This document shows positions 1,321 to 51,500 of a DNA stretch of 64,000 nt, in pieces; positions within the stretch are counted from its first letter, which is position 1; each line of letters begins with the position of its first letter. The notes beneath the pieces are model-generated. The model was given only the letters and a program-made list of their open reading frames with translations, made no database searches and was not told the DNA's origin. Source of the stretch: Stegostoma tigrinum (lineage: Eukaryota); assembly GCF_030684315.1 (NCBI RefSeq), contig NC_081363.1, positions 39,974,200 through 40,038,199 of the forward strand. The letters are read 5' to 3'. The translations under genes and the position numbers were made by a program.

Positions 1321-2075
1321 CACATCTGCCAATGTGGTATACTGCATCCACTGTACCCGGTGCGGCTTCCTCTACATTGGGGAAACCAAGCGGAGGCTTG
1401 GGGACCGCTTTGCAGAACACCTCCGCTCAGTTCGCAAAAAACAACTGCACCTCCCAGTCGCAAACCATTTCCACTCCCCCTCCCATTCTCTTGATGACAT
1501 GTCCATCATGGGCCTCCTGCACTGCCACAATGATGCCACCCGAAGGTTGCAGGAACAGCAACTCATATTCCGCCTGGGAACCCTGCAGCCACATGGTATC
1601 AATGTGGACTTCACCAGTTTCAAAATCTCCCCTTCCCCTACTGCATCCCTCAACCAGCCCAGTTCGTCCCCTCCCCCCACTGCACCACACAACCAGCCCA
1701 GCTCTTCCCCCCCACCCACTGCATCCCAAAACCAGTCCAACCGGTCTCTGCCTCCCTAACCGGTTCTTCCTCTCACCCATCCCTTCCTCCCACCCCAAGC
1801 CGCACCCCCCGCTACCTACTAACCTCATCCCACCTCCTTGACCTGTCCGTCTTCCCTGGACTGACCTATCCCCTCCCTACCTCCCCACCTACACTCTCTC
1901 CACCTATCTTCTTTACTCTCCATCTTCGGTCCGCCTCCCCCTCTCTCCCTATTTATTCCAGTTCCCTCCCCCCATCCCCCTCTCTGATGAAGGGTCTAGG
2001 CCCGAAACGTCAGCTTTTGTGCTCCTGAGATGCTGCTTGGCCTGCTGTGTTCATCCAGCCTCACATTTTATTATC
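1321..2075 (+). mobile_element. 5'-truncated Penelope-like retroelement (GIY-YIG endonuclease end, 3'UTR, pLTR with hammerhead)
   Basis: [31 protein letters not shown]...VANHF...[21 protein letters not shown]; C-rich 3'UTR; terminal repeat shared with many short copies. Confidence 0.9.
1982..2013 (+). ncRNA. Minimal type-I hammerhead ribozyme (family A), intact core
   Basis: CTGATGA-A-GGGTC ta GGCCC-GAAAC-GTC; palindromic ACGT stem III; stem I only about 2 bp. Confidence 0.7.
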
Positions 2076-25520: not shown

Positions 25521-26626
25521 TGTAAGCTATCTGACATATGCTGGTCCTATTTCTTGACTTCTCCACTTCAGAAATACAGAGTTATGTTTGTTGCAACATC
25601 AAAAAAGGGGATGATGTTGCCTTGATTAAACTGTATTCCTTTTTTAAAAAAGATGTAGCAATATCAAGTTGTACTCCAGCATCTACTCCTAGGGGTGCAA
25701 TTCCAGCTGTCTTGTAGTAACTAGTTTCACTAAACAGCTGTGGAGTACAGAAGCAAATACTCCATTTTAATCTACATAATTGCAATGACTAGCAGGGTTT
25801 TGCTAGATAGCTAGCTACTATTTTCCTATAGGTTTCCTTCAAAGGAAGCACATGTTTCAACAGCCAGCAAATCAATTTGAAATGAAAACAGCTGCAGCTC
25901 AACCTACATTGGCTGCAACCTGACTGAACTTACCAGATGGCGTTCTTCACCTTTTTAAAGAATCTCTTATTTGCTTATTACAACTGCAATCTACAGCTGT
26001 AGTTATGAAAACAAATGATTTTCATTAGGTGTTTAGTGAGCACTACTCATGAACAAAGTGGGGAAAGGACTAGTCACAGACTTGAGGTATAGATGAGCAA
26101 TAATTTAGTGAATTGATTTCATGTAGTGGAAACTTCTTGCCATCACAAGTCCAGTGGAAAAGTGAGGGGAGTCCACTACCAGCAGAACATTGGCATGCAG
26201 TTGCACCTCAATCTGCAAAACATGTTGAATAGTGATGAGCAACCAGAGCCATGAAGTTAAGGGTATTTGGTGACCTTATGGAACTACAGCTAACCAGTGA
26301 CAGGACTGACACTTTGCATAGGACATTCCTACCAAGCTTCCAAAACCTATTCTGACTAGAGTCAAAACTATTCAGCATGAGCAACCTTTTTGAATCTATG
26401 CCAACCTATGTGTACTAACTGCACTTTCCAGCAGTTACAACAGAAACCAGGAGTATCTCAAGAAGGAAGAAGTGATAGCTTGTTTCTCCAGAGATTTTAC
26501 ACCAATCCCTCAATTACATACCTATCATAATGATTTAGACATAGGTACCTCTTGCTACTTGAAAAGAAAAGTTCTGCAAGGGGCTCTACTTGGAGCAGTT
26601 CATTAATTGAGACAGACAGTGCAAGT

Positions 26627-26853
26627 TAGCAAGTTTTGAGAAGATTTGTAGCTCAGGTTGAGTTTCTGGATGTGAGTTTGCTCACTGAGCTGGGAGGTTT
26701 TCAGACGTTTTGTCATCATTCTAGGTAACATCATCAGTGAGCCTCCGATGAAGCGCTGGTGTTATTTCCCGCTTTCTATTTATCTGTTTAGGTTTCCTTA
26801 TGACATCACCAACCCAAGGAAACCTAAACAGATAAATAGCGAGCAAACACATC
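26627..26853. mobile_element. Second family-B mini-element
   Basis: Closely similar to 36489-36650; TSD CAGACA(G/T)TGCAAGT at 26613-26626 and 26854-26867; perfect 24-bp inverted repeat 26776-26799 / 26816-26839. Confidence 0.85.
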
Positions 26854-27429
26854 CAGACATTGCAAGTGAATCACTGTTCAAACTGTTGTTCAAAAAGCTC
26901 ATCATTGAACAGGTAAATTGTGAATTTGCATTTACTGTTGTGGCTAGCTTTATAATGTTATGTAATTGTAGGTAAGTGAATGCACATCAAGTTGTGGTTG
27001 TAATACAAATTGAATAAACAAGAAAAGCAGTTGGTCATTGAATCTGGGATAGGGTGTCAAATTCATACCTCCCAAATTCAGCTACTCTAAAGCAGTAATT
27101 TAACCTCCTGTGGAAAGTATAGTGCAATATTTAACCCAACTCCACACTCTCAAGTGTACTTTCAAAGCATGCTTATTTCACCTCTGATCTACCCCCAATC
27201 CATCTGAAATAGCCTCTCAGGAGGAATAAATTTGACAATTTTGTATGCCTCTATGAAATGACTATAAAGGCTATGCATTTCATAGGGAATTTTGCACAGT
27301 TCTTCCCCCTCTGATTCACACCTGCCAATGCCTGTTATTCTCCAACCAGTTATCCTTTGCTTTTCCGTCATCTACTCAGAGGCCTGTTCCAAAATGCCTA
27401 GATTTATGTCTTGACTATTAGACTATAGA

Positions 27430-36440: not shown

Positions 36441-36488
36441 CCTAATTCAAATGTTTGAACTTTGCCTTCCAGGCGTAAAACCTGTATT

Positions 36489-36737
36489 AGCGAGTTTTGA
36501 GAAGATTTGTAGCTCAGGTTGAGGTTCTGGATGTGAGTTTGCTCGCTGAGCTGGAAGGTTCGTTCTCAGACGTTTCGTCACCATTCTAGGTAACATCATC
36601 AGTGAGCCTCCGACGAAGCGCTGGTGTTATGTCCCGCTTTCTATTTATCGTCGGAGGCTCATTGATGATGTTACCTAGTATGGTGACGAAACGTCTGAAA
36701 ACGAACCTTCCAGCTCAGTGAGCAAACTCATATCCAT
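36489..36737. mobile_element. Palindromic hammerhead-bearing mini-element (family B)
   Basis: 89-bp inverted arms 36528-36616 and 36648-36736; perfect 13-bp TSD TAAAACCTGTATT at 36476-36488 and 36738-36750. Confidence 0.9.
36565..36606 (-). ncRNA. Minimal type-I hammerhead ribozyme (family B), intact
   Basis: Minus strand reads CTCA-CTGATGA-T-GTTACC tagaat GGTGAC-GAAAC-GTC-TGAG: 4-bp stem I, 6-bp stem II, complete catalytic core. Confidence 0.8.
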
Positions 36738-37924
36738 TAAAACCTGTATTTCAGACCATTTTCCCATTGAAATAGTCTAATGTTGCTTCTCTAAAAGATG
36801 GCACTTATACAACAATGCCAAGAGTCCATTGAAAATCCAGCCACTTTCCCCATATCATGCAAGTTTAGACAACATTTTATTAGGCCACTAGATGGAGTAA
36901 TTCTTGGGCCACTGCTGCAGTTCAACTCTTCACAGCACAGAGAGCAAAATGAGGTTTTTGTTAACAGTTTACAGAATGTTCTAGAGTGCATAGTCTGCAT
37001 CCAAGAGAGATACAGATAGGGGAGATCATTTTAACTCACTAGTTCAGTGTTTTTTAAAAAACTCATTTTCCCCTGATATATTAAATTGTCTCTTAAAGAA
37101 CAAGTTTTTGTTATGACTATCACAACTTGTTGAAGGGACTACTTTAAACATCGATGTTCAGCACAAATGAGGCTGGCACACAAATAAAATTGCTAGTGAT
37201 TTACCTAGTGACGTTCCGTTTCCTTCTTGCAATCATCTGTTTTAAACTGTTTTCTGAGCAGGTATGAAGAATAACTTCCTATCAGTCTTACTTTAAAATA
37301 CAAAAATTGGTTTCTGATAAAATCATTGGGGGCTGACTACAAGTTTAACCAGCATCTAGTGTGGGGAAACCATTGTAGCTAATCTAGAAGGAAGAAGATT
37401 AGCAGAGGACCAAACAAGTATGTTTAAACAAAAATGTTTTTATAAATACTTTCGTTGTGGGCTCAGGAGGAGTAGGATTTTCTAAAAAGGGAAGATTGAG
37501 TCTCCCGTGCCCAATATTCATCAATCCCCAACACAGGCCTCGTGCGTTCCAGCCAGCTGCTATTTCTCACTGACTTCAGACAAGTATAGATAGAACATGG
37601 TAGTCATGCCTGTACATTTCGATCATTTGCTCTTTTTTCTGCCAGGCTCAAAACAGTTCACCACATGAATTTATCTCTACCTACCCAATTCCCACTCCGA
37701 ATTAAAAGTGTTAGTTCTTCCACAAATACATTTTTCCCTAACAGTTTGAAACATTCTTGGCTGAGGTATGAAGCACAATGATACGCTATTCTGATGCCTG
37801 TAGGATTCTTTACCCTATATTTAGTGGTTATGATCTCTACACACTTTTATAAAGAACAATTCATTGGCCTCTTTCTTTTCCACATTTAAGTATCAGCAGT
37901 AGTTAAATGAAACTTTTTGCTTTC

Positions 37925-45470: not shown

Positions 45471-45521
45471 ATGTCTACTCGAACGCCATTACCTACGGTG
45501 AATGAACGTGAAACAGAGCAT
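45471..45521 (+). CDS. MARK3: MARK3 coding exon 1
   Basis: AAAATGT start; [17 protein letters not shown]; donor GTAAGT. Confidence 0.95.
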
Positions 45522-48500
45522 GTAAGTCATCTTTATTGGGTTACAAGACACCCCGGAAAAGGGAGCACGGGCTTATTGTACACCCACCGTATTTGTTTGA
45601 AGGACTAAGTGTCCAACTTGGATCATGGTTTGGAAACGAATTGCTAGTGAACTGGAATAAATGTTGAGTTGGGTTCTTTTGTAAAGCTTCTCTGCAAATT
45701 TTGGGTGTTTACTGTTAAGTAGTTAGCATGTCCTGATGCTTGGCTTTTTATATTTAGTCTTGCTGTGCGCCTATACTGCTTCCTTTTTTCATCTCAGTCC
45801 GTGTCAACACGGCGTGAGGAAGCCGACAGATGTCGGGACACATCACGGAGGTGTTGGATTTGACCGAATTGGTTTTCAAGTGAGCCGCTAGGTCATGTTT
45901 TTGGAATTGACCGTCCGAAAAACAAGTATATTTAAAAATTGGTCCCATCGTTATCTTGTTAAGAATGTATTGTATTTGAGGGCCGTTCAAAGGTTGAGCT
46001 AAGCGTTTAAAGCCCCACAGTTACTAGCTTTAATCTTTTAAGACGTTTAGCATGCCTCTTGCAAGATCAGAAGGTGTCATGAATTGTACGCTTTGTGTAT
46101 CGCCTTAGAGAATTAAAAATGATCGCATCATTACGCAGCTGGAATATTTTAAACAAATTCTGCTAATGATTGAAAATATACTTAGGATTATGGGGTGCAT
46201 TAAATATGTTGGTTCTGAAGATAGCATAAAACCTGTATAACAGTTATTAAAATGTTGTATTATCACCATGAGCTGAATTTGCTATAATATGTTTGTAATT
46301 CCTTTTCAATTGTGAACATGTCCAGGAAAGCTGATTTATAGATATTGTCCTTTTAAATGTATCTGCAGGGCACTGAGGTGTGTAATAGAAGAAATTCTGA
46401 TGTCTGTAATCTCATTCCAAAAATCCAAAGTGCTCTGAGCAACGAAGCTCACTTGTGAGCATTTTTGAAATATACCCACTTAGTTTTGTGACAGCCAGTT
46501 TGCGTGCAGCAAGGGGACCTGGTGAGTTTGTTGTGGAACTAATCTTGTCCAGGACCTTTGGAGGTTCTGAAGAGTGGGGTCAGTCGCTGAACCTCTGAGG
46601 TAAGATGCAGTTGAGTGAGGTTATATTCCATCTCTAGTAGTGGCAGCAATAATTAGAGTTGATGCACTTGCTGATGTTAGTCTTATGTCTTTTAAAGACA
46701 ATTACTTTAGCTTCATTTGTAATGGGAGAGAAATTGGGATTTTGCAAGAAGTTTGTCTTGTTCTGGACAAACTCTAATGTTACATGTATGGGATATCATC
46801 ACTTTCCAATATACTCTCCTTTTTTAAATATAAACTACTTGGGATGTGCTTTTTTCACAAGAACCAACCAACAGAGGTAAAAGATATTAATCTGTTTTAG
46901 TAATGGTGGCTGAGTTGCAAATCTTAGCCAGGAGATGGGAAGTTCTCCCCCTTAAACTGCTGTAAACTTACTCAGTTGCACCCAAAATAATTTGTCAGGT
47001 CTTAAAATTAATTTGGATAGTAGTTTTTAACTGTACCAGTACATTCAGTTATGTGACTCTTCTCTCTTTTGAGACAAAAGAATGTCTTGGGTTACCCAGA
47101 AACTAGCTGATTCTTGAAGTGCTGTTGAGCATGAGGCTGTGCTCACCATCACCTGGAAAATGTAGATGTGCACTCTCTCTTGATTTGTAGATTTGGCCAG
47201 TTTATGGGACAGATAGGACAAAATGGTAATGTCAATAGACTAATCCAGAGGAAAAACCAAGAACTGCAGACGGTGTAAATCAGGAACGCAAACAGAAGTT
47301 GCTGGAAAAGCTTAAGTGTGGCAGCACCTGTGGAGGAAAAAAGCTAATGTTTCGGGTCCAAGGAATGGTCACTGGAACTGAAACGTTAACTTCTTTCCTT
47401 CACAGGTGCTGCAGATCTGCTGAGCTTTTCCAGCAACTTCTGTTTTTATGTAATAATCCAGAGGCCCCAGCTAATGACTCGTGATGCTGGTGGAATTTAG
47501 AATTTATTAGCATTTGAAGTTGAAAGTTGTCTGTTTCAGTCATTATTACTATCATTGCACAAATCCCTTTAGTTTACTATAATAAAATGTGAGGCTGGAT
47601 GAACACAGCAGGCCCAGCAGCATCTCAGGAGCACAAAAGCTGATGTTTTGGGCCTAGACCCTTCATCAGAGGGGGATGGGGGGAGGGTTCTGGAATAAAC
47701 AGGGAGAGAGGGGGAGGCGGACCGAAGGTGGCGAGGGGATAGGTCAGTCCAGGGAAGACAGACAGGTCAAGGAGGTGGGATGAGGTTAGTAGGTAGGAGA
47801 TGGAGGTGTGGCTTGGGGTGGGAGGAAGGGATGGGTGAGAGGAAGAACAGGTTAGGGAGGCAGACAGGTTGGACTGGTTTTGGGATGCAGTGGGGGGGGG
47901 AGGGGACGAACTGGGCTGGTTTTGGGATGTGGTGGGGGAAGGGAGATTTTGAAGCTAGTGAAGTCCACATTGATACCATTGGGCTGCAGGGTTCCCAAGC
48001 GGAATATGAGTTGCTGTTCCTGCAACCTTCCTGGCATCATTATGCCACTGCAGGAGACCCATGATGGACATGCCATGTAAAGAATGGGAGGGGGAGTTGT
48101 TTGTTGTGAACTGAGCGGAGGTGTTCTGCAAAGTGGTCCCCAAGCCTCCGCTTGGTTTCCCAAATGTAGAGGAAGCCACACCAGGTACAGTGGATGCAGT
48201 ATACCACATTGGCAGATGTGCAGGTGAACCTCAGCTTAATGTGGAATGCCATCTTGGGGCCTGGGATAGGGGTGAGGGAGGAGGTGTGGGGGCAAGTGTA
48301 GCATTTCCTGTGGTTGCAGGGGAAGGTGCCAGGTGTGGTGGGGTTGGAGGGCAGTGTGGAGCGAACAAGGGAGTCATGGAGAGAGTGGTCTCTACAGAAA
48401 GCAGACAGGGGTGGGGATGGAAAAATATCTTGGGTGGTGGGGTCGGATTGTAGATGGTGGAAGTGTCGGAGGATGATGCATTGTATCCAGAGGTTGGGGT

Positions 48501-51500
48501 GGTGTGAGAACGAGGGGATCCTCTTTGGGCGGTTGTGGCAGGGGCGGGGTGTGAGGGATGTGTTGCGGGAAATGTGGGAGACGTGGTCAAGGGTGTTCTC
48601 GACCACTGGGGGAAAGTTGCGGTCCTTAAAGAATTTGGACATCTGGGATGTGTGGGAGTGGAATGCCTCATCATGGGAGCAGAAGAAAATCTGCATCCGT
48701 ACCTGATCTGGCCTACCTATGGCTCCAGACCTAAATTAATATGGTGCATTTTGACTGGCCTTTGAGATGGTCACTTAAATGGTACGCTCCAAGTGCTGGC
48801 CTTGCCAATGAACTCTCATCCCATGACGAATAAAAGCTGGAGACAGCTGTGAACGTGAAAAAAGTTGTAGGTGTGGAAGAAATGTCTGATTTAGAGGGCT
48901 TTTTGCTGCCAAATTATCATCTACATTGATGCTGTCTTGTTTTCTATTTGTTGAAATTTTCATCTAGACTGAAGCCATTCTTGTCTAATTTCACTTTGCA
49001 CAAAATATAACTACTGCAAAGCACAATGTGCTTCCACATTTCTTCTGCCCAAGCAAGTTGTTAAAAGATTCTCTCATTTTCTCCCTTTTAAAAATCCTCC
49101 ATTGCTTTGACCTATGCTACTTTTCCCAGTGAACTAATCCAGCATTGGCCTACTACTCATTCCACATTGACAGCTACTTCTTGAGCCACAGGAATGCAGG
49201 ACCTTTCTCTGTCCTACCACATCCCTTAATACTACTAAGATTGTTCTCAGTGTATGCTCTTCCAGTCTTATTATCTCCCATCCTAGAAAACATTTAAGAT
49301 GTCTTCATACTAGGATTCCTATAAAAATGTAAGTACTAATGGCCATCAGCACTGCAACCACAGTGTGGAGCTGGATGAACACAGCAAGCCAAGCAGCATC
49401 TTAGGAGCACAAAAGCTGACATTTCGGGCCTAGACCCTTCTTCAGAAAAGGTTGTGCTTCTGTGCTCCTAAGATGCTGCATGGCCTGCTGTGTTCATCCA
49501 GCTCCCCACTTTGTCTCAGATTCTCCAGCGTCTGCAGTTCCCATTATCTCTTATTGCATTTTGGTATCTGCACATTAAATTTAGTGGTAGGACATTGGAC
49601 ACAAACTGCAGAACTAAGCTTAAAGTCTCTAATTTTGAACAAAGATCATAATTGCTGAATTATGCCTTGCAGAAGGAGGCTGTTCATCCCACTTGTCTTC
49701 AGTGGTTCTCAGAACTTGACATGGGATGGGGGGCGTTGGGTGGTGCAAGTCAGAAGTTTGGTGCTACAACGTTTGAAAATTGTTATTCAAATAGAAACCA
49801 TGCAATGTCTCAAACATCTCCAACCCACTACTTAGCAGCGTGCTCCAAACTAGATGATTTTGCTGTGTGCTATGTATTTCACCTCATTTTCTGCTTTTTT
49901 TTGTAAAGCACTTTAAACCTGTCCCCTACTGTCAATCCCTTTTGAGAAGACAGTTTCTTCCTGTGTACTGTTAGATTCCATGATTTTGCAAACTTTTATC
50001 CAATCTCCCTTTGCTTTCTCTCAGAAACAGTCCTAACTTCTCCAATCTGCCCCCTTAACTGAAGTATATCATCCCTGGAACCATTCTTGTAAATATCTTC
50101 TGAGCCCACAGCAATAAATGTGCCACCTTCCTAAAGAGGGGTGCCCAGAACTGTGCACAAGCTCCAGGTATGGTTAACATGTCCAACATTGTTCAACAGA
50201 AACCCGTCCTTTGTATTTAATTTGCTGTTAGAGGCTGAGTTAATTAAAGATGGACTATTGCAAATTTTCAATGGAACTTTCAAATATTACATGAGGAGCA
50301 GAACAACGATTTGACTTGGGGGGTGGATTTTATTTTGGCCTTTGTCCAAAGGAAGGCCTTGCTTTCAAGATGTGTCAATAGAATAAATGCTTGCGTGTTT
50401 TTTGAAACCTCTATCGCTATCTCTGACTCTAACAGTTTAGTTTAAAAGCTCAACATTTTAAACTAATGTCCTTGTTTTCCTCCATCAGCACACATCTCAT
50501 GTGGATGGCCGCTCAGAAATTTCTTCTCGGCCAACCCGTTCTGGAGGCGCTCGATGCCGGAATTCAATTACGTCTTGTGTTGATGAGCAGCCACACATAG
50601 GAAACTATAGACTTCTGAAAACTATTGGCAAAGGGAACTTTGCTAAAGTGAAGCTGGCTAGACATATCCTTACTGGAAGAGAGGTAAGTTGGTCTGTAAT
50701 TGTCTTGACTTCTTTATTCATTTAGTGGAGATCAGCATACTAAGTTTTCTTTTGTTACAGTTTATAACTTCTCATTTCTAGTGTTGTCATATTTTTGACT
50801 CTTGGTAACACTCTTGTGAACCTCTGACCTTAAATCTCTTCAGGAAATCTGAGCGTTCTCTTGTATGCCTCTTTGTATTTCCCCTCTTGAAGAAGAGCTT
50901 AACAATTTCACATGGTGAGGTTCCTAAGTGAATCATAATGGGAGATCAAGTGAAAAGTATGTGAACCAGCTGAAGTATTTTTGTGTCTTTAAGTAAACAA
51001 TCAATTATATTTCTATCTTCATGGGTTTATAGGTAGCATACTCCTAAGTCATGCCATAAAACAGTTTAATGAAAGGATCCATTTTAGATTTCTTTCTGGA
51101 CCATCAGCTGACCTGTAGCCTGCATATTTTCACAGTGCAAACATTTACCATCCTTTTCCAACTCTCCTCTGACTCTGAAACCCATGTCAAGGTTGTTGTG
51201 ACCTTCAAGTTTAACTTCTCAAATGTTACTTATTAGCGTCAATGTTGTAAGCTCAAATTTTAATTTAAAAAAATCACTGCCTATATTCTATCCTCCATTA
51301 AGCACTTACTGCCCTCATCCGTGTTTTGTCTTTTACCTCCCCACGCATTATCTTAAATTATCAAACCTGTTTAAAGTTCCATGTGCAGTAACAGTGGTTG
51401 TGACTGGACTATTGATTTTGATATGAAATTAAATCCTGCAGGTGGGGTATCTAATGCATTTGTATGAAATAACTGAAGTTAAAACTATAATTGTAAAATG

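What the first reader, a model, noticed from the sequence alone, without database searches (positions are those of the whole stretch)
36476..36750. Fold-back mini-element with one hammerhead ribozyme on each strand
Seen: a 249-bp insert with a perfect 13-bp TSD and two 89-bp inverted arms. The left arm encodes a complete type-I hammerhead on the minus strand (36565-36606). The right arm encodes the same ribozyme on the plus strand (36658-36699, one core change C3>U). Known: Penelope-like elements carry minimal hammerheads whose short palindromic stem III is thought to need dimerisation, and retrozymes are non-autonomous hammerhead retroelements. Inference: this is a non-coding, two-polarity ribozyme cassette with a viroid-like rod fold. 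A full transcript would form a hairpin that silences its own ribozyme, whereas co-transcriptional folding or dimers could cleave. It may be an undescribed shark retrozyme/MITE-like class.
Basis: partly seen in the sequence, partly recalled or inferred. Interest (0 to 1): 0.8.

Follow-up and report, generated by a model that had tools for sequence, protein, structure and literature searches.

The report
Head-to-head Penelope retrotransposon end fragment
This is an ordinary insertion scar made of two short, back-to-back pieces of the end of a Penelope-like retrotransposon, each carrying that element's usual small ribozyme; its value is that its many relatives show how such back-to-back insertions may form.

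Summary
The anatomy is real: 13-bp TSD, 89-bp inverted arms, a minimal hammerhead on each strand. A related species has the empty site. It is not a new retrozyme or MITE class. Both arms are the 3' end (pLTR) of a Penelope/Poseidon-type element whose longer copies run into RT and GIY-YIG coding sequence. The junction is unique in the 3.2-Gb genome. Inverted truncated copies, one-sided tails and opposite-strand hammerhead pairs are already published. In a read-through transcript of either strand the ribozyme is made after its complement and is buried by about 56-66 kcal/mol. The family statistics add something: 41 of 43 two-armed insertions have the 39-nt tail on exactly one arm, none on both or neither. 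The arms stop at matching positions and share variants. This points to priming of both target ends, one at each RT start site (inferred). A few junctions recur (2, 10 and 118 loci), so limited re-mobilisation is not excluded. Side finding: an APE-RT LINE inserts specifically into this hammerhead (16 of 20 copies, plus 3 in tandem; 1,866 junction matches).

The parts
36476..36488 (+). left copy of the 13-bp target-site duplication (last T can also be read as the element's terminal base)
   Evidence: empty site with one copy in organism B
36489..36649 (-). long arm: 5'-truncated 3' end of the PLE (pLTR plus tail), about 162 nt; element sense on the - strand
   Evidence: 97% to a natural copy
36489..36527 (-). 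39-nt PLE tail, present on this arm only; in full-length L068 it continues straight into the ORF
36565..36606 (-). minimal type-I hammerhead with intact core; putative cut after GUC at 36569; overlaps the ORF stop and the putative start ATG at 36599
   Evidence: cleavage not tested
36617..36647 (-). 31-nt unpaired spacer: further pLTR sequence of the long arm
36648..36649 (.). head-to-head junction with 2-nt overlap (TC); unique in the genome
36648..36736 (+). short arm: inverted 5'-truncated pLTR without tail, followed by one extra T at 36737
36658..36699 (+). second hammerhead copy with C3>U and 3-bp stem I
36738..36750 (+). right copy of the target-site duplication

Best explanation
What it is (shown, about 0.95): a single, probably inert, heavily 5'-truncated insertion of an abundant endonuclease-containing Penelope/Poseidon-type element, in the known head-to-head form: pLTR+tail joined to an inverted tail-less pLTR, inside a 13-bp TSD. 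The two hammerheads are the pLTR's normal ribozyme copied twice. How it formed (inferred, about 0.6): the GIY-YIG endonuclease cuts both target strands 12-14 nt apart. Both 3' ends prime reverse transcription on element RNA, one at the distal start (giving the tail) and one about 39 nt upstream (no tail). Usually both copy the same source RNA, probably as a dimer whose two active sites cannot use the same start. Both cDNAs end early, often at nearly the same position. Having the same polarity, they can only be joined through short or palindromic microhomology. What it does now (inferred): nothing as a ribozyme; read-through RNA would be a long hairpin.
For: Identity: longer copies run from the same tail end into GIY-YIG and RT coding sequence. 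L053 carries a 630-aa open frame; its last 578 aa score RVT_1 E=2.6e-12 and GIY-YIG E=0.003. L068 shows inverted piece + pLTR-ORF-pLTR+tail, with the tail continuing into the ORF. 12,072 exact matches of an arm 30-mer, 0 for the control. Junction unique. Mechanism, from the first 100 listed matches on contig C1, which gave 46 two-armed insertions: 43 are scorable; 41 are tail/no-tail, 2 tail/shorter arm, 0 tail/tail, 0 no-tail/no-tail (counted by hand). TSDs of 11-16 bp in 36 of 46, of which 31 are 12-14 bp. Inner ends within 25 nt in 19 of 37 simple pairs against 4.8 expected, and 18 against 5.2 with one reference; the maximum in 20,000 shuffles was 14. Either arm can be the longer (16 no-tail, 11 tail, 10 equal). 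Arms share variants: 30 of 37 vs 21.7 expected, p=0.001; 17 of 18 vs 12.3, p=0.004. Junction overlap in 23 of 37, blunt in 4, filler in 10. Palindromic junctions (AAGCTT, ACGT, TCCTAGGA) recur, one also in a diverged sister family (L223). L118 and L165 have a tail arm only 10-16 nt long next to an intact TSD. In vitro, the Anolis Poseidon protein cuts and extends both strands, uses two RT starts that bound the tail, and is predicted to be a dimer (PMC11167929).
Against: The window's own arms differ at 5 of 89 sites, two of them low-frequency family variants. 7 of 37 pairs disagree at the main polymorphic site, so one shared template is not universal. In vitro, no strand difference in start site was seen (PMC11167929), and the one-start-per-end rule has not been shown biochemically. 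L179 has the tail on both arms (one arm extends further into the ORF), 1 of 30 in the AAGCTT set. The sample comes from one 22-Mb stretch of one contig and needs an exact 30-mer, so it favours young copies. Arm ends from local alignment are uncertain by a few nt. Arm concordance could partly be later gene conversion. The GIY-YIG Pfam hits are below the curated cut-off, and no RT tree was built. One 10-copy junction has the tail on the same arm in 10 of 10, which purely independent events do not predict.
Confidence: 0.8

Rival explanations
1. Self-priming / snap-back: one cDNA (or an antisense template, as proposed by Arkhipova et al. 2013) folds back at a short palindrome and copies itself; later central deletions make the arms unequal. 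The element's identity is the same; only the mechanism differs.
For: Near-equal inner ends (10 of 37 within 5 nt), palindromic junctions and shared arm variants. Proposed in PMC3846280 (passages read).
Against: Snap-back from a tail-less start cannot add a tail, yet the no-tail arm is the longer in 16 of 37. It predicts some no-tail/no-tail pairs, because tail-less single-arm copies with TSDs are common; 0 of 43 were seen. It also needs large one-sided deletions (tail arm 72 nt against about 900 nt in L108).
Confidence: 0.25
2. One reading: the fold-back is itself a propagating non-autonomous unit (retrozyme/MITE-like) with ribozymes in both polarities.
For: Some other junctions recur with different TSDs: 2 loci 650 kb apart, 98% identical; 10 loci with the tail always on the shorter arm; 118 loci with the AAGCTT junction.
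Against: This locus's junction is unique. Of 19 other full-span best hits, only two share a junction, and with each other, not with this locus. Arm lengths range from about 70 to 1000 nt. The AAGCTT set holds at least 4 arm haplotypes, includes a sister family and shows no private fixed variant. The 10-copy set holds 2-3 haplotypes with no shared derived change. The ribozymes are buried in either transcript. There are no head-to-tail tandem units.
Confidence: 0.05
3. Two independent insertions, or a later DNA rearrangement (cruciform repair, inversion), made the inverted repeat.
For: The window's two arms differ at two family-variable sites.
Against: One TSD frames both arms and the orthologous site is empty. 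The same tail/no-tail layout holds in 41 of 43 unbiased cases.
Confidence: 0.02

Closest known systems
Penelope/Poseidon EN+ PLEs (Poseidon_Ac of Anolis, PMC11167929; Pen2a_Av of Adineta, PMC3846280)
   Same: RT + C-terminal GIY-YIG ORF; pLTR overlapping the ORF start; hammerhead at the start codon; 30-40-nt tail on one end; inverted truncated pLTR; TSD.
   Different: This copy keeps only about 160 + 90 nt of the 3' end. TSDs here are 12-14 bp against 8-10 bp in the rotifer examples read. The strict one-tail rule and the coupled arm lengths were not found quantified in the papers read.
Minimal hammerheads of metazoan PLEs (PMC4209133)
   Same: Short stem I, long stem II, extra base after A9, palindromic 15.2-16.2; pairs on opposite strands 100-700 bp apart are mentioned there.
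   Different: Nothing of substance; here the pair is traced to its insertion anatomy.
Non-LTR retrozymes (bioRxiv 10.64898/2026.07.22.740005)
   Same: Type-I hammerhead, PLE-derived, non-autonomous.
   Different: Retrozymes are head-to-tail tandem units with ribozymes on one strand. This is head-to-head, single, with a unique junction.
L1 twin-priming 5' inversions (recalled; search listing only)
   Same: Both target strands prime cDNA; inversion inside one TSD; junction microhomology.
   Different: L1 inversions use mostly non-overlapping parts of the RNA. Here both arms copy the same 3' segment from two fixed starts.
Tx1-clade LINEs that target other transposons (Tx1 to Tx1D, Tx1-Mar to Mariner-N4; PMC4494074), for the side finding
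   Same: Two-ORF APE-RT LINE with a fixed target inside another repeat, and tandem insertions.
   Different: The target here is a PLE hammerhead, not among the targets in the passages read. Clade not tested by a tree.

Membership tests
EN+ PLE, Penelope/Poseidon | RT followed by C-terminal GIY-YIG endonuclease in one ORF | tested here: met
   In linked longer copies, not in the window copy: L053, (RVT_1 above cut-off; GIY-YIG E=0.003, below cut-off, motif visible)
EN+ PLE, Penelope/Poseidon | two Cys between GIY and YIG (CCHH) and DKG motif | tested here: met
   VIYKIPCKNCDKHYIG and PADKG in translations; definitions from PMC8557442
EN+ PLE, Penelope/Poseidon | no CX2-5CxxC linker between RT and EN (unlike Neptune/Nematis) | tested here: met
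   read by eye in the L053 and L065 translations
EN+ PLE, Penelope/Poseidon | pLTR-ORF-pLTR partial tandem, hammerhead in pLTR, 30-40-nt tail, inverted truncated copy | tested here: met
   L068; window
EN+ PLE, Penelope/Poseidon | RT phylogeny places it in the clade | not tested
Non-LTR retrozyme | two or more head-to-tail units with same-strand hammerheads | tested here: not met
   head-to-head, opposite strands
Non-LTR retrozyme | a fixed repeat unit amplified as a family | tested here: not met
   junction unique
Non-LTR retrozyme | self-cleavage and circular RNA | not testable with these tools
   no RNA run listed; folding argues against it
MITE (definition recalled) | terminal inverted repeats at both ends | tested here: not met
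   the inverted repeat starts 39 nt inside the left end
MITE (definition recalled) | uniform size and short fixed-length TSD | tested here: not met
   insertion lengths 110-2492 nt, TSD mostly 12-14 bp
Viroid-like ribozyme RNA | circular RNA with usable ribozymes in both polarities | tested here: inconclusive
   no RNA data; hammerhead fold 56-66 kcal/mol above the hairpin in both strands

The most novel reading that the evidence does not exclude
Fold-back products of this PLE are not all dead ends. Some are copied again in trans as non-coding head-to-head units with a hammerhead on each strand: the two target ends are primed on the unit's two opposite transcripts, which restores both ends and the junction exactly. 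Candidates are the 10-copy junction with the tail on the same arm in 10 of 10, the 2-copy pair and part of the 118 AAGCTT copies. That would be a second-generation, MITE-looking retroelement class, although the window's own copy is not a member of any such family.
Probability: 0.25. Interest if true: 0.65.

Novelty: new member of a known kind. Interest (0 to 1): 0.35.

Why it matters
The locus itself is a routine PLE remnant. The family matters more. How PLEs make inverted repeats and one-sided tails is stated as open in PMC8557442. The counts here give predictions that the existing in vitro Poseidon system (PMC11167929) can test directly: one start site per target end, coupled stopping points and a shared template. 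The thousands of long hairpins implied (roughly 5,500 two-armed insertions, extrapolated from 46 per 100 matches) are potential dsRNA sources. Separately, a LINE that inserts at a fixed point inside the hammerhead would add a ribozyme to the list of known LINE targets and breaks many copies of it.

Tried and rejected
Rfam scan: no hammerhead family at E<=10, only chance hairpin/miRNA models. PDB sequence search with the PLE ORF: 0 hits. Sequencing runs: no RNA holder listed, which says nothing on expression. Earlier scan notes: nothing. Idea that hammerhead cleavage sets the truncation point: none of 94 arm ends lies at positions 80-84 from the tail end, where the cut would fall. Idea that the flank is a DNase-like exon: dropped untested; the site lies between the last EIF5 coding exon (about 23.4 kb) and a MARK3-like start at 45471 (the MARK3 and EIF5 C-terminal motifs were recalled). 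Idea of a general bias for the tail-less arm to end 10-40 nt further in: not seen, 5 vs 5. Idea that the LINE rebuilds a working hammerhead at its 5' junction: weak, only 1 of 12 such junctions keeps GAAACGTC and most read AAACATC. Rows dropped before counts: L125, L134, L153 (one outer end hidden by the LINE); the window copy; L160 (same junction as L155) in length and variant tests; L141 in the variant test; and 8 pairs with extra pieces or gaps over 40 nt in the length test. One search was a first version without these exclusions (23 of 39 within 40 nt). PMC9004415 gave nothing on ZCCHC3/Tx1.

Full report
Observation. The + strand folds at -188.3 kcal/mol, z -23.1. A minimal type-I hammerhead lies at 36565-36606 (-) and a copy with C3>U and a 3-bp stem I at 36658-36699 (+). 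Rfam does not call it. It fits the minimal form described in PMC4209133: short stem I, long stem II, extra base after A9, palindromic ACGU. A contig from another species (run X5) joins 36475 directly to 36738, so the site is empty there and the TSD is genuine.

What it belongs to. A genome search gave 82 matches from the 40 best of 2,483 candidates. Twenty were full-span fold-backs including this one. They share the two outer ends but have different centres, except two that share a centre with each other. Copies matching only the left arm continue into GIY-YIG and RT coding sequence. L053 holds a 630-aa open frame, whose last 578 aa match RVT_1 and, weakly, GIY-YIG. L068 is a full partial tandem: inverted piece, pLTR, ORF, pLTR with tail; its upstream tail runs straight into the ORF. 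The hammerhead overlaps both the ORF's stop codon and the putative start codon, and the window's left arm reads as the first 37 codons. DKG and CCHH motifs are present and the Neptune-type linker is absent, which fits Penelope/Poseidon as defined in PMC8557442; no tree was built. An arm 30-mer occurs 12,072 times exactly (control 0). The window's junction occurs once, allowing 2 mismatches.

Family anatomy. I took the first 100 listed matches (C1, 0.5-22 Mb) as a structure-blind sample. They gave 46 two-armed head-to-head insertions and 35 other arm ends. Three pairs have one end hidden by a LINE and were dropped. Of the other 43, 41 have the tail on exactly one arm, 2 pair a tail arm with a shorter arm, and none has two tails or none (hand count; L141 read across the LINE, L102 across a 315-bp insert). 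TSDs of 11-16 bp were found in 36 of 46, 31 of them 12-14 bp. Among 37 simple pairs, inner ends lie within 25 nt in 19 (4.8 expected), or 18 (5.2 expected) with a single reference. The tail-less arm is longer in 16, the tail arm in 11, and 10 are equal. Arms agree at two polymorphic sites more than chance: 30 of 37 vs 21.7, and 17 of 18 vs 12.3. Junctions overlap in 23 of 37, often at palindromes. Against a strict single template, 7 of 37 disagree at the first site, and the window's own arms differ at two family-variable sites.

Mechanism. Shown: one event, one TSD, two fixed outer ends, coupled inner ends. Known from PMC11167929: a Poseidon protein cuts and extends both DNA strands, starts reverse transcription at two internal sites that bound the tail, needs no ribozyme cleavage, and is predicted to be a dimer. 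Inferred: both target ends are primed, one at each start, mostly on the same RNA, and the two same-polarity cDNAs are joined by microhomology (about 0.6). The published alternative is self-priming (PMC3846280). It explains palindromic junctions but not longer tail-less arms or the absence of tail-less pairs, unless later deletions are added (about 0.25).

Ribozyme function. The 3' ends point outward, so a read-through transcript of either strand contains the antisense arm before the ribozyme. Forcing helices I and II costs 62.7 (-) and 65.5 (+) kcal/mol in the full insert, and 56.2 and 57.5 in the nascent RNA, against 9.2 in the lone arm. The two ribozymes are never sense in one RNA, so no intramolecular dimer can form. 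Even tandem minimal hammerheads cut poorly in vitro (PMC4209133). No RNA data were available. By coding exons the insert is intergenic, between EIF5 and a MARK3-like gene.

Is anything propagating? Three recurrent junctions were followed. AAGCTT: 118 loci. Thirty were examined; they carry several arm haplotypes, no private fixed variant, and one belongs to a diverged sister family, which favours a hot spot at a palindrome. A second junction: 10 loci, tail on the shorter arm in 10 of 10, 2-3 haplotypes, no shared derived change. A third: 2 loci 650 kb apart, 98% identical, with different TSDs. The last two are compatible with small-scale re-mobilisation or with a directional joining rule; I could not separate these.

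Side finding. Ten sampled arm ends were preceded by the same poly(A)-ended LINE. It has a ZCCHC3-like RNA-binding/zinc-knuckle ORF1 and an APE-RT ORF2, with fish, amphibian and lancelet relatives at 35-55% identity. I searched with its 3' end alone and fetched 20 of the 39 other listed hits. Sixteen are followed by the 3' strand of hammerhead stem II of this PLE, 3 by the LINE's own 5' end (which carries a diverged copy of that target), and 1 by other sequence. The junction pattern matches 1,866 times, control 0; tandem copies are included in that count. 'Tx1-like' is my inference from architecture and behaviour; Tx1 elements that target other transposons are known (PMC4494074).

Literature seen. 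PMC11167929 and PMC4209133: parts 1-2 of 4 (main text). PMC8557442: passages and section 15. bioRxiv 10.64898/2026.07.22.740005: part 1 of 5 and passages. PMC3846280, PMC4494074, PMC9004415: passages. No supplements were read. Searches found no paper quantifying the one-tail rule or describing a LINE that targets a PLE hammerhead. Repbase, Dfam and most subscription papers were not searchable, so both may be recorded there.

Verdict. Real feature, known kind, ordinary locus. Interest 0.35, carried by the family-level mechanism and the LINE.

Noticed in passing
L141:1610-6908; L184-L203; genome-wide: A 5.3-kb APE-RT LINE (Tx1-like, inferred) inserts at a fixed point in stem II of this PLE's hammerhead: 16 of 20 copies, 3 more in tandem, 1,866 junction matches. 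Its 5' end carries a diverged piece of the target about 50 nt long. Deserves its own follow-up.
   Followed up: partly
window 26613-26867: Second copy of the same PLE in the window: tail arm of 177 nt, an inverted piece, a short tail-less end, and a 14-bp TSD with one mismatch; looks like a two-armed insertion with an internal deletion.
   Followed up: partly
window 1984-2011 (+) and about 49445 (-); ORFs at 1307-1759 and 48040-48735: Minimal hammerheads of a different PLE family. The one at 1984 follows GIY-YIG coding sequence; the frame at 48040-48735 has an upstream CX4CX2C motif, i.e. Neptune-like.
   Followed up: no
L172, L173 (C1:19.85 Mb and 20.50 Mb): Two 445-bp fold-backs with an identical off-centre junction, different TSDs and unrelated flanks; the only two in the genome.
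   Followed up: partly
L224-L233: Ten loci share one junction and all have the tail on the shorter arm.
   Followed up: partly
L179, L181: Arms that extend beyond the tail into the ORF (about 70 nt in L179): a possible third start site, or copying from an upstream pLTR-ORF junction.
   Followed up: no
L123, L146, L157, L167: Short internal inverted pieces next to a long arm, like classical twin priming on one RNA.
   Followed up: no
tables 2 and 7: Organisms C and D have many contigs ending at the same tail position (36486-36488), while organism B has mainly a sister family that shares only the hammerhead part.
   Followed up: no
window about 20.2-23.4 kb, 45471, 39.7-42.9 kb: EIF5 exons, a MARK3-like first exon in a CpG island, and a decayed APE-RT LINE (CR1/L2-like by eye).
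   Followed up: partly
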